This document shows, piece after piece, positions 561 to 27,528 of a stretch of 64,000 nucleotides of DNA. The stretch is from positions 640,001-704,000 of the forward strand of contig OY970195.1 of NCBI GenBank assembly GCA_963708185.1, written 5' to 3'. The translations under genes and the position numbers were made by a program. Each line of letters starts with the position of its first letter. The stretch's first letter is position 1. A model generated the notes under the pieces. The model had not been told where the DNA came from. It did not search any database and saw only the letters and a list, made by a program, of their open reading frames with translations. The DNA comes from Candidatus Peregrinibacteria bacterium. Lineage in GTDB: Bacteria; Patescibacteriota; Gracilibacteria; UBA1369.

Positions 561-1731
561 TATTGGAAGATCCATAATCAACGGCAAACGGTGAAGACTG
601 TTTGCTGTCGACGACGGTTGAAGATCCGTTGGTGAGTTCGATCTTCGCGGTGTAGTTTCCAGCAGGGACCAAGGCGTTGCTGTCGCTGCGGCCGTCCCAG
701 TTGGTGAAGTAATCATAACCGTTGGTAACGCTGGAAGAACCGAAGGTTCGAACAACGTTGTTCGAACTGTCGAGAATTTTTACGACTGCCGTTGAGCTGC
801 TATCAACAGCATAATGGATCCGGTCTGTCGTCGTGTTCGGATTGAACGATGCGTTCTCGGCATAAACATAAAGAACTTTTGGATTGTTGGTCGTGGTACC
901 GTAATCGACGGTCACCGGGACGGTTGTTACATAGGCAACCGGGGTTGCGTCGTTCTTTCCCGTAAAACGGATATAATAGGTTTTTGCTGCAACATTGGTT
1001 GAACCGACTTTTCCGTTCCAGCTGATCTGGTAGGTTCCGGCATTCTGGGTGAACGGAGAAGCACCGAGCTGGGTCAGCACGGTGTTGCCGTCGACAACTT
1101 CAATGTTGAGGTTTGCCTGGGTGTTGAGCGTATAGCTCACATAGGTTTGCTGGCCGAGGCTTGGATTGAAAGGGTTTGGGGAAGCGTTCCCGGTAGTAAT
1201 AACAACAGGCTGTGCTGCGGAATTGGAAGTGACAACGATGTTATCCTGGGCAGTGTAGGTTGCCTGGGTGCTGTCCAATTTTGCAGTAATAAGAAACTGG
1301 TATGTTCCGTCATTGACGAGCGTCCCAGTGCCATCAAGACCGTTCCACTGAGTATCATAAGCGCCGCCGTTCATGTGGATGCCGGCAGTGTGATACAGAC
1401 GATTCACTGTTGAACCGTTCTGCATGATATCGAGCCAAACCGTGGCGGGAGCGGCCAGTTCAAAATGAATGGTCGTCTGTTCGCCGTTGCTCGGTTTGAA
1501 AGTGGACGGAGTGGCCTTGGCATTGTTAATAACCCCGGTCGTGGGGCTATAAATGGCAGCCAACAGAGATGGATCTACCGTTGAGGTCGGAGTCACCGTT
1601 GAAACTCCACCGTTTGTACCGTTCACGACGGTAAAAGCGGATACGGTTTGGACCGAAGAAGAAACCACCGTAAGTACCAATGTCATGACGGTTGCCGTTT
1701 TCTTCAGCCATTGAGAAGCATATTGCAGCAT
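1..1731 (-). CDS. Large secreted surface protein with tandem FlgD-type Ig-like repeats (3' partial, runs off window)
   Basis: Manual translation from ATG at 1731 (MLQYASQWLKKTATVMTLVLTVVSSSVQTVSA, signal peptide) is open to base 1. Repeated 'PSSFNP..TTI.Y.L...V.ILDS.NNV.RT...W/FNGRD....LP.G.Y' units. Missing from the ORF track because no stop lies in the window. Confidence 0.85.
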   Translation of the reverse strand, partial: MLQYASQWLKKTATVMTLVLTVVSSSVQTVSAFTVVNGTNGGVSTVTPTSTVDPSLLAAIYSPTTGVINNAKATPSTFKPSNGEQTTIHFELAAPATVWLDIMQNGSTVNRLYHTAGIHMNGGAYDTQWNGLDGTGTLVNDGTYQFLITAKLDSTQATYTAQDNIVVTSNSAAQPVVITTGNASPNPFNPSLGQQTYVSYTLNTQANLNIEVVDGNTVLTQLGASPFTQNAGTYQISWNGKVGSTNVAAKTYYIRFTGKNDATPVAYVTTVPVTVDYGTTTNNPKVLYVYAENASFNPNTTTDRIHYAVDSSSTAVVKILDSSNNVVRTFGSSSVTNGYDYFTNWDGRSDSNALVPAGNYTAKIELTNGSSTVVDSKQSSPFAVDYGSSNNTAPVVTSLTVNPSSFNPSNNETTTISYNLDKAATSAMVQILDSNNNVRRTISGTGTSSTTTNTTSFNGRDDSSNILPVGTYTVKVSASNAYGTGTNTTSVTITNNGSNNNAPVVSNVYASPSSFNPSNNESTTIYYTLDKVATSAMVQILDSNNNVRRTISNTGTAASTNNVYFNGRDDSNNILPV

Positions 1732-2050
1732 GTTGTTGTAAAAAATGGGATAAAATTATTTACATTTTGTAGAAGGTAACCAGTACGGCTCTGCTGCCGT
1801 CAACTTCCTTAATCATTTTGGCGCTTTTTCATTACAAAAATCTTCACTCTTTTCTTTTTCAAATTGTTGAGAAAGGCTGTTATGGTAATGTTTATTGTTT
1901 ATTTTGTCAAGTTTGTTTTTTAATTTCCAAGAACTATATACACCACCTGTCGGGAAAGAAAAGTATTTCAAAGGAGTTTAATGTTGACAAAGGCGCTGAG
2001 CTTCCATATATTTGTTGAGCTTTTGATCACAATATTACAGAAAAATATTT

Positions 2051-2311
2051 ATGCCAATTATTAAGTCAGCCAAAAAGAAAGCCCGCCAGACATTGCGCCA
2101 TTTTGAACGCAATCAGGCCACAAGAACCAAGGTAAAAACCTACATGAAAAAAGTTCTTACCCTGAGCAAATCCAAACCAGAGGATGCAAAGAAACTTTTG
2201 GACGAGGCGTATTCCGTGATCGATACCGCCTGCAAGAAACATATTCTCCACCCGAACAATGCCGCCCGCAAGAAGTCCAGGCTGGCTCGTGCCGTTTCTC
2301 CGACGAAATAA
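2051..2311 (+). CDS. rpsT: 30S ribosomal protein S20
   Basis: MPIIKSAKKKARQ...IDTACKKHILHPNNAARKKSRL, typical S20. Confidence 0.97.
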   Translation: MPIIKSAKKKARQTLRHFERNQATRTKVKTYMKKVLTLSKSKPEDAKKLLDEAYSVIDTACKKHILHPNNAARKKSRLARAVSPTK

Positions 2312-2335
2312 AACTGATGGTTGTCTTGAAATCCC

Positions 2336-2364
2336 ACTGCCGCTCTGCGCGGCAGTTTTTGTTT
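2336..2364 (+). terminator. Intrinsic terminator of rpsT
   Basis: actgccgc-tctgc-gcggcagt followed by ttttgttt. Confidence 0.75.
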
Positions 2365-2478
2365 GTAAAAAAAACCTGCGCGAGTCTTTCTGATTGTGGG
2401 ATCGGACCCGCTGTATTAGAATCGTGAAGGTGTTTTGAAAAGGCCTGTAGCCTAAACTGCAGCCTTGCATCCACTCCC

Positions 2479-2554
2479 GGGCCTGTAGCTCAGTGGTTAG
2501 AGCAGTCGGCTCATAACCGATTGGTCGATGGTTCAAGTCCATCCAGGCCCACCA
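2479..2554 (+). tRNA. tRNA-Ile2 (CAT anticodon, lysidine type)
   Basis: 76-nt cloverleaf, GGGCCTG/CAGGCCC acceptor, CTCATAA loop, encoded CCA. Paired G1-C72 and ileX-like body argue against initiator Met. Confidence 0.9.
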
Positions 2555-2562
2555 GTTCATTT

Positions 2563-3140: not shown

Positions 3141-3168
3141 TTGACAAATTTTTAAAAATTCTTATGAT
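3141..3168 (+). promoter_or_regulatory. sigma70-type promoter
   Basis: TTGACA-16 nt-TATGAT; predicted TSS ~3173-3176. Confidence 0.7.
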
Positions 3169-3172
3169 TCGA

Positions 3173-3311
3173 TGCGACTGGATGTTTTGACTGGTAGTTA
3201 CCTATTCCGCACTGCCTGCGAGTAAAAGGGTGAAACGGACTGGTGCCGTTTCTTTCTTTTCCGTTTGCCGTTGCGAGGTAGGTAGGCTGTCAGTTTGAAG
3301 CCTATGTTGCA
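3173..3311 (+). ncRNA. Candidate structured RNA / 5' leader: ~139-nt rod-like hairpin rich in G-U pairs
   Basis: Manual pairing: 3173-3211 with 3272-3311 almost continuously; 3224-3238 with 3246-3260 (gaaacgg/ccgtttc apex). Confidence 0.65.
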
Positions 3312-3341
3312 GTTCAACCAACGTGATTCCGGAGGTAGAGC

Positions 3342-3533
3342 ATGTCGCGAAGGATGGTAGAAGAGCTCGAAGAGGTATTGCCCGAGGGTAGGAATTCGGT
3401 ACCGAAGGATCGTCGGGGGAAATCCACGACGGCCCATCATCGTGCCAGCCGCGGGGGACGCGATCGTGCGAAGGTGAAGGTTCACCGTCTCAAGGCCATG
3501 AAGGCCTGCTGCTACATCGCCCGGAGCCGCTAG
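3342..3533 (+). CDS. Small basic (Arg/Lys-rich) 63-aa protein of unknown function
   Basis: GGAGGT 5 nt before ATG; promoter upstream; strong stem-loop downstream. Confidence 0.65.
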   Translation: MSRRMVEELEEVLPEGRNSVPKDRRGKSTTAHHRASRGGRDRAKVKVHRLKAMKACCYIARSR

Positions 3534-3561
3534 ACTCCGTCGCGGCTTCAAGCCAGCTTAC

Positions 3562-3595
3562 ATATGCGGCCCGGGAAACTTTCCGGGCCGCATAT
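3562..3595. terminator. Strong stem-loop between convergent genes
   Basis: atatgcggcccgg...ccgggccgcatat, 13-bp perfect stem; U-tract weak. Confidence 0.7.
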
Positions 3596-26779: not shown

Positions 26780-27528
26780 TCCTCCTTGGCGGCGAGCTGA
26801 TAATTTTCCCACTTCTTCTTTTTGAGTGCTTCAGCTGCAGCTTCCTGTTCGGCTTTTTGTTTGCTGGAACCTTTTCCCTCTGCGACGAACTCTTCCCCGA
26901 CGTACGCTCCCATGATGAAGGTTTTGTTGTGATCGGGACCTTCTTCTTTCATCAGTCTGTATTCGGGCGTAACCCCCAAGACCTCCTGGGCAATTTCCTG
27001 GAAATGGGATTTTGAATCGATGTGAAGTCCTTTTTTGAGAATTTCCTCGAGTCTGGTAAGAATGTACGAATCGATGAAGTTGTGAGCTGTCTTGTAATCC
27101 TGATCCAGGTACATGGCTCCGATGAGGGCTTCAAGCGTATTGGCGAGAATGTAATTCTTTTTGCGGCCGCCTGAACGTTCTTCTCCCCGGCTTAAATAAA
27201 GGTAAAGCCCCAGATCGAGTTCCGAGGCGATTTCGGCGAGATGTTTCCCTTTCACCAGCGCGGACCTCCAGTTGGTGAGGACGCCTTCCTCCTCTTCCGG
27301 ATATTTCCTGAACAGATAATCCGTGACTACGAGCTCCAACACCGCATCTCCCAGAAATTCCAACCTTTCATTGTGTTGAGCTTTCAAATCGCGATGTTCG
27401 TTCATGTAGGATTTGTGCACGAACGCCGTATCAATAAGATTCAGATCCTTGAAGGTGACGTCGATCTTTTTTTCGAGCGCCTCATAACGGTTCATGGAAG
27501 GCTGTTCGGATGAAGGTTTTACTGCCAT
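26776..27528 (-). CDS. rnc: Ribonuclease III
   Basis: NERLEFLGDAVL, EALIGAMYLD, dsRBD GPDH..F..G.GSSK..AEQ. Confidence 0.98.
   Translation of the reverse strand: MAVKPSSEQPSMNRYEALEKKIDVTFKDLNLIDTAFVHKSYMNEHRDLKAQHNERLEFLGDAVLELVVTDYLFRKYPEEEEGVLTNWRSALVKGKHLAEIASELDLGLYLYLSRGEERSGGRKKNYILANTLEALIGAMYLDQDYKTAHNFIDSYILTRLEEILKKGLHIDSKSHFQEIAQEVLGVTPEYRLMKEEGPDHNKTFIMGAYVGEEFVAEGKGSSKQKAEQEAAAEALKKKKWENYQLAAKED

What the first reader, a model, noticed from the sequence alone, without database searches (positions are those of the whole stretch)
3173..3311. 139-nt G-U-rich rod-shaped RNA starting right at a predicted TSS
Seen: 3173-3211 pairs with 3272-3311 nearly without interruption and 3224-3238 with 3246-3260. 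More than ten pairs are G-U, so it folds well only as + strand RNA and is not a DNA palindrome. It begins within a few nt of a TTGACA-16-TATGAT promoter. It lacks the signature motifs of SRP RNA, tmRNA and RNase P and the large central bubble of canonical 6S. Inference: an undescribed structured ncRNA or 5' leader (stabiliser, RNase III substrate or divergent 6S).
Basis: partly seen in the sequence, partly recalled or inferred. Interest (0 to 1): 0.72.

Follow-up and report, generated by a model that had tools for sequence, protein, structure and literature searches.

The report
Conserved rod-shaped leader RNA, Peribacteria
A long, strand-specific RNA hairpin sits at the front of the messenger for a tiny, very basic protein in a few genera of ultra-small Peribacteria; it matches no described RNA family, and what it does is still unknown.

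Summary
The hairpin is real. Window 3173-3311 folds to -54.9 kcal/mol (z -4.33, 0 of 200 shuffles as good), with 58 pairs, 13 of them G-U. The opposite strand folds much worse. No Rfam family matches it or its 8 homologous copies.

Its core (3191-3293, plus an invariant 10-nt tail to 3303) recurs in 8 of 36 genomes of one Peribacteria family (4 of 25 genera, 9 copies). It was found in 0 of 128 genomes of 18 sister families. On an alignment fitted to the model, 29 of 43 pairs show changes on both sides. The outer 18 bp that reach the predicted transcription start are specific to this genome.

Every copy lies 38-61 nt upstream of a strong ribosome-binding site and a 55-95 aa hydrophilic ORF; 8 of 9 ORFs have pI 10-12. 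In this genus the unit is promoter, rod, 63-82 aa Arg/Gly-rich disordered protein, terminator. The RNA is recognisable across genera but the proteins are not.

It is not 6S RNA or SRP RNA: the models do not match and there is no central bubble. The genome also has no match to either Ffh/FtsY domain. My best reading is a new cis-acting leader, probably a protein-binding or RNase III platform, possibly fed back by its own product. That mechanism is inferred, and no expression data were available.

The parts
3141..3168 (+). Sigma-70-type promoter, TTGACA-16-TATGAT. The predicted start is about 3174-3177.
   Evidence: 11 of 12 positions. Similar near-consensus promoters lie upstream of the homologous leaders in G002, G004 and G003 (read). 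None is evident in G001.
3173..3190 (+). 5' half of the outer stem. It pairs with 3294-3311 and is specific to this genome.
   Evidence: It is not conserved in relatives.
3191..3293 (+). Conserved rod core. P1 is 3191-3211 with 3272-3293 (about 21 bp, one 1x1 mismatch and one bulged base). P2 is 3214-3230 with 3254-3268. The apical hairpin is 3232-3238 with 3246-3252.
   Evidence: Covariance models R1-R3 and covariation counts.
3239..3245 (+). Apical loop containing CUGGU. The loop sequence is kept in genera g1, g4 and g21 while its stem covaries.
   Evidence: Alignments.
3294..3303 (+). Tail UUUGAAGCCU. It is invariant in all 5 genomes of the genus and unpaired in the consensus structure. In this genome it forms part of the outer stem.
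   Evidence: The motif has no other copy in a hairpin context in the genome.
3331..3335 (+). Shine-Dalgarno GGAGG, 6 nt before the ATG.
3342..3533 (+). Gene for a 63-aa Arg/Gly-rich basic protein (pI 11.1) with no known family.
3544..3553 (+). 3'-UTR stretch GGCUUCAAGC, complementary over 10 bp to 3293-3302 of the leader.
   Evidence: 3 of 2000 shuffles as good here, 0 of 2000 in G001 and 21 of 2000 in G002. It is not significant in G003 or G004.
3562..3595 (+). Terminator hairpin (15 bp, 9 G-C) shared with the convergent M15 peptidase gene.
   Evidence: Homologous hairpins follow the ORF in the four relatives.

Best explanation
The rod is the conserved 5' leader of a self-contained, strongly promoted, single-gene transcript: promoter, rod of about 105-170 nt, 38-61 nt spacer, strong ribosome-binding site, small hydrophilic and mostly very basic ORF, terminator. 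It does not hide the ribosome-binding site. I read it as a cis-acting recognition and processing platform. It offers a nearly continuous 21-bp helix with a conserved single-base bulge, a sequence-conserved apical loop (CUGGU) and an invariant 3' tail, all available to a specific binder. The most economical binder is the Arg-rich, disordered protein encoded just downstream. That would give negative feedback on translation or stability, with the long duplex also a plausible RNase III substrate. This logic resembles ribosomal-protein leaders or the phage lambda N leader. Shown here: the structure, its strand specificity, its conservation and covariation, its fixed position before small ORFs, and the absence of any known family match. 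Inferred: transcription, the identity of the binder, feedback, and cleavage.
For: - **Fold:** z -4.33 against shuffles.
- **Strand specificity:** the + strand is more stable than the - strand in all 10 rows tested (9 copies plus the full G000 rod), with 5-17 G-U pairs per copy.
- **Conservation in the genus:** the rod is the best-conserved stretch of the locus, 68-76% identity in 4 of 4 relatives, while the flanks barely match.
- **Covariation, unfitted alignment:** RNAalifold on a plain MAFFT alignment of 5 sequences gives 17 of 55 pairs with changes on both sides.
- **Covariation, 8 model-aligned sequences:** 94.9% of cells are paired against 43-48% when partners are slid. 29 of 43 pairs change on both sides against 12.9 +/- 2.4 in shuffles, 0 of 500 shuffles as high.
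- **Position:** all 9 copies precede a GGAGG-like site 5-12 nt from a start codon. The spacer is 38-61 nt and the site's unpaired probability is 0.22-0.68, so it is not occluded.
- **ORFs:** 8 of 9 have pI 10.1-12.0 and all 9 have GRAVY <= -0.98. G007, G024 and G013b end in Arg-rich runs, and the five genus ORFs end in a short ...RR/RSR/RRK.
- **The genus ORF is coding:** differences by codon position are 275/243/361, with 150 synonymous codon differences in frame against 66 and 42 in the shifted frames.
- **The product is predicted disordered:** pLDDT 58, pTM 0.13.
- **RNase III is encoded** at window 27052-27441, minus strand.
- **Sequence-level conservation** of the bulged P1, the loop and the tail goes beyond what pairing requires.
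- **Lambda N precedent:** a structured leader, N-dependent translational repression and RNase III modulation, taken from passages of PMC5725501 and its references 28 and 29.
Against: - No expression data exist. No sequencing run could be listed, so transcription, RNA ends and processing are unknown.
- The downstream proteins of different genera show no detectable homology to each other. One, G013a, is acidic with pI 4.7. This weakens the idea that each protein recognises the shared RNA.
- The covariation alignments A6 and A7 were fitted to the model and lean towards it.
- There are only 9 copies from 8 related genomes.
- No sequence mimicry of the organism's rRNA was found. The best shared word is 11 nt at E 0.31, and it lies in the non-conserved part.
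- RNase III needs no sequence conservation, and a plain stabiliser needs none either.
Confidence: 0.4

Rival explanations
1. The rod is a passive 5' stabiliser. It is a long stable hairpin near the 5' end that protects a highly expressed small mRNA from 5'-end-dependent decay, with no specific binding partner.
For: In this genome the rod starts within a few nucleotides of the predicted start. It does not touch the ribosome-binding site. The promoter and terminator are strong.
Against: In the relatives the predicted start lies 14-61 nt upstream of the conserved core, so the rod is not 5'-terminal there. The invariant loop, bulge position and unpaired tail are not needed for protection.
Confidence: 0.2
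2. The RNA is a dual-function or trans-acting RNA. The rod itself is the functional gene, released or acting within the mRNA, and uses its conserved loop and tail to bind another RNA or a cellular protein. The small ORF is secondary.
For: The RNA is recognisable across four genera while the ORFs are not (against 45, 103, 104). G013 carries two copies before unrelated ORFs, and in both the rod is followed by a run of 7-8 U. The loop has no consistent partner within its own transcript: ACCAG is present in only 3 of 7 transcripts.
Against: There is no terminator or U-run after the rod in the genus of the window. The motif has no other copy or obvious target in the genome. The fixed distance to a strong ribosome-binding site in all 9 copies argues for a link in cis.
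Confidence: 0.17
3. The transcript is a fold-back-controlled mRNA like the type I toxin hok. The 3' UTR pairs with the leader tail to keep the full-length mRNA inert until it is processed.
For: There is 10-bp complementarity between 3293-3302 and 3544-3553. It is better than shuffles in G000, G001 and G002 (3, 0 and 21 of 2000). G013 has tandem copies.
Against: The complementarity is not significant in G003 or G004 (650 and 761 of 2000). The proteins are hydrophilic with no membrane-type segment. No antisense promoter lies within the unit; the only minus-strand site points away, from 3076 to 3048. The comparison with hok is recalled, not tested.
Confidence: 0.05
4. The rod is a divergent housekeeping RNA, either 6S RNA or SRP RNA, that the standard models miss.
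For: The complete genome has no match to the 6S, small-SRP or large-SRP models. The RNA is rod-shaped.
Against: Neither model matches the region even at E<=10. There is no central bubble. The genome has no Ffh M domain and no SRP54-type GTPase domain at all, so no SRP RNA is expected. The absence of SRP subunits in many CPR bacteria is in print (passage of PMC8080830). The rod occurs in only 8 of 36 family genomes and in 0 of 128 genomes of other families, and it is always joined to an ORF.
Confidence: 0.02

Closest known systems
Autoregulatory ribosomal-protein leaders (general class, e.g. the Rfam 'leader' families)
   Same: A structured element lies in the 5' UTR of a gene for a small, very basic protein. 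It is conserved over a narrow clade, and its sequence-specific features suggest a protein site.
   Different: The protein belongs to no ribosomal-protein family. A separate S21-like gene exists elsewhere in the genome. No rRNA mimicry was found. No Rfam leader family matches. The ribosome-binding site is not part of the structure.
Phage lambda N leader (nutL, structured RNase III-sensitive leader, N)
   Same: There is a long structured leader between the transcription start and the gene of a small, disordered, Arg-rich RNA-binding protein. The structure lies too far from the ribosome-binding site for simple occlusion. RNase III is available. The lambda facts come from passages of PMC5725501 and its references 28 and 29.
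   Different: No boxA/boxB-like nut site was identified or sought. The context is chromosomal and syntenic rather than prophage. Binding, antitermination and cleavage are untested.
6S RNA (RF00013)
   Same: It is a rod-like RNA of 100-200 nt with a sigma-70-type promoter.
   Different: There is no model match and no central bubble. It is attached to an ORF and has a narrow distribution.
Earlier scan finding e1-1076099 (CPR small basic-protein gene wrapped in conserved hairpins)
   Same: It shows the same general picture in another CPR genome: a consensus promoter, a long structured leader absent from RNA databases, a small basic protein and a terminator.
   Different: It comes from a different genome with a 117-aa protein and hairpins that sequester the ribosome-binding site. 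No relation in sequence was tested here.

Membership tests
6S RNA (RF00013) | Match to the Rfam covariance model at or above 46.4 bits | tested here: not met
   There is no match in the region at E<=10 and none in the whole genome at E<=10. The control search rings in known genomes.
6S RNA (RF00013) | Large central bubble flanked by long helices (open-promoter mimic) | tested here: not met
   The minimum-energy and consensus structures show only 1-3 nt bulges and small internal loops.
6S RNA (RF00013) | Binds sigma-70 RNA polymerase holoenzyme | not testable with these tools
   This needs biochemistry.
Bacterial SRP RNA (RF00169 / RF01854) | Model match with the domain IV motifs | tested here: not met
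   Searches give no match. 0 of 41 relatives match RF00169.
Bacterial SRP RNA (RF00169 / RF01854) | Partner protein Ffh (M domain) encoded in the genome | tested here: not met
   PF02978 and PF00448 give no match in the 99%-complete single-contig genome. Controls ring in 14 of 14 known genomes.
Autoregulatory leader of an RNA-binding protein gene | Conserved structure in the 5' UTR of the regulator's own gene | tested here: met
   This is met by position and conservation. Transcription itself is not shown.
Autoregulatory leader of an RNA-binding protein gene | The product binds the leader and represses its own synthesis | not testable with these tools
   The only indirect support is that the protein is basic, Arg/Gly-rich and predicted disordered.
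Autoregulatory leader of an RNA-binding protein gene | The leader mimics the protein's primary RNA target (rRNA) | tested here: inconclusive
   There is no sequence similarity to the rRNA operon beyond 11 nt. Structural mimicry was not tested.
Intrinsic-terminator attenuator | Hairpin followed by a conserved U-run upstream of the ORF | tested here: not met
   The apical hairpin 3232-3252 with its U-rich tail was flagged. The tail pairs with an upstream A-run inside the rod, and in G003 it is replaced by an A-run.
Type I toxin mRNA (hok-like) | Small hydrophobic membrane peptide plus an antisense RNA | tested here: not met
   All 9 ORFs are hydrophilic, GRAVY <= -0.98. There is no antisense promoter in the unit.
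RNase III substrate | About two turns of nearly continuous duplex, and the enzyme encoded in the genome | tested here: met
   P1 is about 21 bp and the rnc gene is present. Cleavage itself cannot be tested here.

The most novel reading that the evidence does not exclude
The rod, not the ORF, is the conserved gene. It would be a Peribacteria-specific regulatory RNA that assembles with the small Arg-rich disordered peptides encoded next to it into a self-encoded ribonucleoprotein. That particle would act in trans through the invariant CUGGU loop and the UUUGAAGCCU tail, in a lineage where I found no match to the 6S or SRP RNA models. This would explain why the RNA outlives the recognisable sequence of its ORFs and why it duplicates before unrelated small ORFs.
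Probability: 0.12. Interest if true: 0.75.

Novelty: new variant of a known kind. Interest (0 to 1): 0.45.

Why it matters
Almost nothing is known about RNA-level control in CPR bacteria. This is a well-supported structured RNA confined to a few Peribacteria genera. It is attached to a family of tiny Arg/Gly-rich proteins: a profile search of the representatives of about 15 billion predicted proteins returned only four clusters beyond the window's own. If the RNA and protein form a feedback pair or a particle, that would be a new small regulatory module in a lineage with a stripped-down RNA and protein toolkit. If the rod is only a stabiliser, it is a minor annotation. In either case the covariance model lets the element be annotated in new Peribacteria genomes.

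Tried and rejected
- **Rfam:** the region, the window and 8 homologous loci gave nothing on the element.
- **RNA-seq:** no RNA holder was listed, and no run of any kind was listed.
- **Metagenome scan** with the 20-nt invariant motif: 4 loci, none matching model R1. I read 2 of the 4 and both were unrelated coding contexts.
- **Viral and genome-collection scans** with the same motif: 1 and 7 loci. Only 4 of these 8 match model R3, and all four are Peregrinibacteria, Peribacteria or 'Gracilibacteria' MAGs. Two have the contig lengths of G001 and G003 (3736 and 138322 bases), and all four give the same R3 scores as G001-G004. The other 4 (one virus, Xanthobacter, a Clostridia MAG, a deltaproteobacterial MAG) are chance matches.
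- **Protein identity:** Pfam and NCBIfam give nothing, except one of 5 members with a weak DUF3602 match at E 4.6e-4. The best PDB match has E 1.3. The protein atlas gave a weak S21-like lead at 0.82, a score that shuffled proteins often reach. I set it aside because a separate S21-like ORF exists, although that ORF scores only 16.9 bits, below Pfam's cut-off of 27. The AlphaFold2 model has low confidence, so no fold search was run.
- **Lower helix (P0)** extending the rod in relatives: not supported.
- **Apical loop pairing with the 3' UTR:** not better than shuffles (485 to 1456 of 2000). **Loop partner elsewhere in the transcript:** none consistent.
- **Ribosome-binding-site sequestration by the rod:** not seen.
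- **Mini-ORFs inside the 3' arm and a TTG-started upstream ORF at the tail** (and ORF lists): frames and peptides are not conserved, so I rejected them by eye.
- **Other copies of the motifs in the genome:** none in a similar context.
- **Literature:** a search for Peregrinibacteria or Peribacteria with structured-RNA terms listed no paper holding either taxon name among its top 15. I therefore found no description in print, within that one search.
- **Three weak protein hits** in other genera (E 7e-4 to 0.0098) were not examined.

Full report
**Observation.** RNAfold pairs 3173-3211 with 3272-3311 (36 bp in six short runs) and 3224-3238 with 3246-3260. There are 58 pairs in all, 13 of them G-U. 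The + strand folds to -54.9 kcal/mol against -39.0 +/- 3.7 for dinucleotide shuffles (z -4.33, 0 of 200 as good). The - strand reaches only -34.7 (z -2.36). So this is an RNA-level, strand-specific structure and not a DNA palindrome. A TTGACA-16-TATGAT promoter ends at 3168, although the scan found only 2 sites where shuffles give 1.3. No Rfam family matches the region at E<=10 with a meaningful score. The whole window gives only three tRNAs at gathering thresholds.

**Surroundings.** The rod is followed by GGAGG at 3331-3335, an ATG at 3342, a 63-codon ORF ending at 3533 and a 15-bp terminator hairpin at 3562-3595. No terminator-like site lies between the rod and the ORF. Upstream, a divergent promoter serves a weak DUF6624-like gene. 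Downstream, a convergent 665-aa M15-family peptidase gene ends at the same terminator. The window is part of a 1.437-Mb single-contig genome that is 99% complete. Record titles of the sister genomes name Candidatus Peregrinibacteria, Peribacteria or 'Gracilibacteria' MAGs.

**Conservation in the genus.** A DNA search of 61 related genomes found the locus in all 4 other genomes of the genus. The matching stretch is the rod core, window 3191-3303, at 68-76% identity, while the ORF and flanks barely register. One further hit, in G011, covers only the promoter hexamers.
- Each relative has the same unit: near-consensus promoter (not evident in G001), rod, ribosome-binding site, a 73-82 aa homologue of the ORF, and a terminator.
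- All four relatives keep the M15 peptidase neighbour.
- Within the rod, the 5'-arm block around UACCU, the apical loop CUGGU and a 27-nt 3' block ending in UUUGAAGCCU are almost invariant. Three relatives carry an extra small hairpin near the apex.
- RNAalifold on a plain MAFFT alignment gives 55 pairs, 17 of them with changes on both sides.

**Wider distribution.** I built three successive covariance models.
- R1 (5 sequences) found one copy in a second genus: 6 of 36 family genomes matched, G007 at 42.8 bits.
- R2 added genera g21 and g10, giving 8 of 36 genomes and 4 of 25 genera.
- R3 added a second copy in G013, 1.5 kb from the first.
- With R3, 4 of 151 genomes sampled across the order matched. 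All four are in this family, and 0 of 128 genomes from 18 other families matched. Searches of this size use stricter filters.
- On the model-fitted alignment of 8 sequences, 94.9% of cells pair against 43-48% when partners are slid. 29 of 43 pairs change on both sides against 12.9 +/- 2.4 in shuffles, with 0 of 500 shuffles as high. The 6-sequence version gives 95.7% and 24 pairs. These alignments lean towards the model. The relatives are few and not independent.
- All 9 copies fold better on the gene strand than on its complement, with 5-17 G-U pairs each.
- None of the 8 homologous loci has an Rfam match on the element.

**What is not conserved.** The outer 18 bp that carry the rod to the predicted start in this genome have no supported equivalent elsewhere. 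In the relatives the predicted starts lie 14-61 nt upstream of the core. The U-rich run after the apical hairpin, flagged as terminator-like, pairs inside the rod and is replaced by an A-run in G003. An attenuator reading therefore fails.

**The downstream gene.** In this genus it is a real coding sequence.
- Third-position differences dominate (275/243/361 by codon position). Synonymous codon differences number 150 in frame against 66 and 42 in the shifted frames.
- The protein is Arg/Gly-rich with an RAGRGGR-like core, has pI 11.1-12.0 and is predicted disordered (pLDDT 58, pTM 0.13).
- It has no Pfam or NCBIfam family; one member weakly touches DUF3602. It has no PDB relative.
- It is very rare. 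Three proteins were found through the word index of 5.8 billion clusters. Four were found in an exhaustive profile search of 1.84 billion representatives. In 205 genomes of the order it occurs only in the five genomes of the genus, plus three weak hits I did not examine.
- A language-model look-up suggested S21-like features at a score that shuffled proteins often reach. The genome has a separate S21-like ORF, so I do not read this protein as S21.

**ORFs in the other genera.** The ORFs behind the rod in G007, G024 and G013 are 55-95 aa and hydrophilic. Three of these four are basic with Arg-rich C-termini. None shows detectable homology to the genus family. One, G013a, is acidic. The RNA is therefore better conserved than what it precedes. 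The ORFs may be fast-evolving disordered orthologues or replacements, and I cannot tell which.

**How it may work.** The rod leaves the ribosome-binding site partly accessible: unpaired probability is 0.22-0.68 and the spacer is 38-61 nt. Direct occlusion is therefore unlikely. The rod presents about 21 bp of nearly continuous duplex with a bulge at a fixed position, a conserved loop and an invariant unpaired tail. Those features point to recognition by a specific partner.
- I commit, at about 0.4, to a cis-acting binding and processing platform. The most economical partner is the Arg-rich disordered product, giving feedback. RNase III, which the genome encodes, is a likely co-player.
- The nearest worked example is the lambda N leader. 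There N bound at nutL represses N translation across a highly structured, RNase III-sensitive leader (passages of PMC5725501 and its references 28 and 29).
- That the element is a conserved structured leader RNA I hold at about 0.9. Binding, feedback and cleavage are all inferred.

**Rivals.**
- A passive stabiliser (0.2) does not explain the sequence invariance.
- A dual-function or trans-acting RNA (0.17) fits the finding that the RNA outlives its ORFs and the two copies in G013, but it has no supporting target.
- A hok-like fold-back (0.05) rests on a 10-bp complementarity between 3293-3302 and 3544-3553. That is significant in 3 of 5 genus genomes, two of which are close kin. It is contradicted by the hydrophilic products.
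- 6S or SRP RNA (0.02) fails the model searches and the structure test. The genome has no match to either the Ffh M domain or the SRP54 GTPase domain. The absence of SRP subunits in many CPR bacteria is already noted in print (passage of PMC8080830).

**Novelty and limits.** The element matches no Rfam family. One literature search listed nothing on structured RNAs in this lineage. I class the element as a new variant of a known kind, the structured mRNA leader. It has a narrow range and an unknown function. No expression data could be obtained, and supplementary files of papers were not consulted.

Noticed in passing
whole genome G000 (window = C1:640001-704000): The genome has no match to small or large SRP RNA, to the Ffh M domain (PF02978) or to the SRP54-type GTPase domain (PF00448). 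No 6S RNA was found either. 0 of 41 relatives match the small SRP RNA model. A paper passage says SRP subunits are absent in many CPR bacteria (PMC8080830), so this is probably known.
   Followed up: partly
window 3544-3553 versus 3293-3302; also G001 (L004) and G002 (L003) 3' UTRs: The 3' UTR carries GGCUUCAAGC, complementary over 10 bp to the invariant leader tail. This beats shuffles in 3 of 5 genus genomes. No explanation so far accounts for it.
   Followed up: partly
L006 (G003), minus strand, about 1175-1195: A second copy of the CUGUCAGUUUGAAG motif, inside a small stem, lies in the 3' UTR of the same small gene.
   Followed up: no
L029 1501-1625 (-) and L031 1501-1627 (-), genome G013: Two copies of the rod lie 1.5 kb apart, each before a different small ORF. 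Two lipoprotein-like genes lie between them and a lysozyme-like gene lies downstream. In both copies the rod is followed by a run of 7-8 U.
   Followed up: partly
between the predicted start and the rod in most copies (e.g. L003, L006, L013, L028): A short motif resembling UGAUCUUUGA recurs 10-25 nt upstream of the rod across genera. Its pairing with the tail was not better than shuffles. It remains unexplained.
   Followed up: partly
window 2066-2560 (-) and tRNA-Met 2479-2554 (+): The listed 164-aa ORF overlaps the tRNA-Met gene. Mainly its C-terminal part (aa 77-163) is conserved in a relative, so the true start is probably downstream of the tRNA.
   Followed up: no
L005 754-841 (+), genome G004: There is a sub-threshold match to the Rfam Trp_leader family: 30.1 bits against a gathering score of 41, E 0.016.
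   Followed up: no
G000:C1:356388-356594 (L027 1474-1680 +): The genome's S21-like ribosomal protein (68 aa) scores only 16.9 bits against Pfam S21, whose cut-off is 27. It is a divergent S21.
   Followed up: no
window 1650-2100: This is an AT-rich stretch (GC 0.33-0.35 against about 0.50 around it) between the FlgD-Ig-repeat protein gene and the next gene.
   Followed up: no
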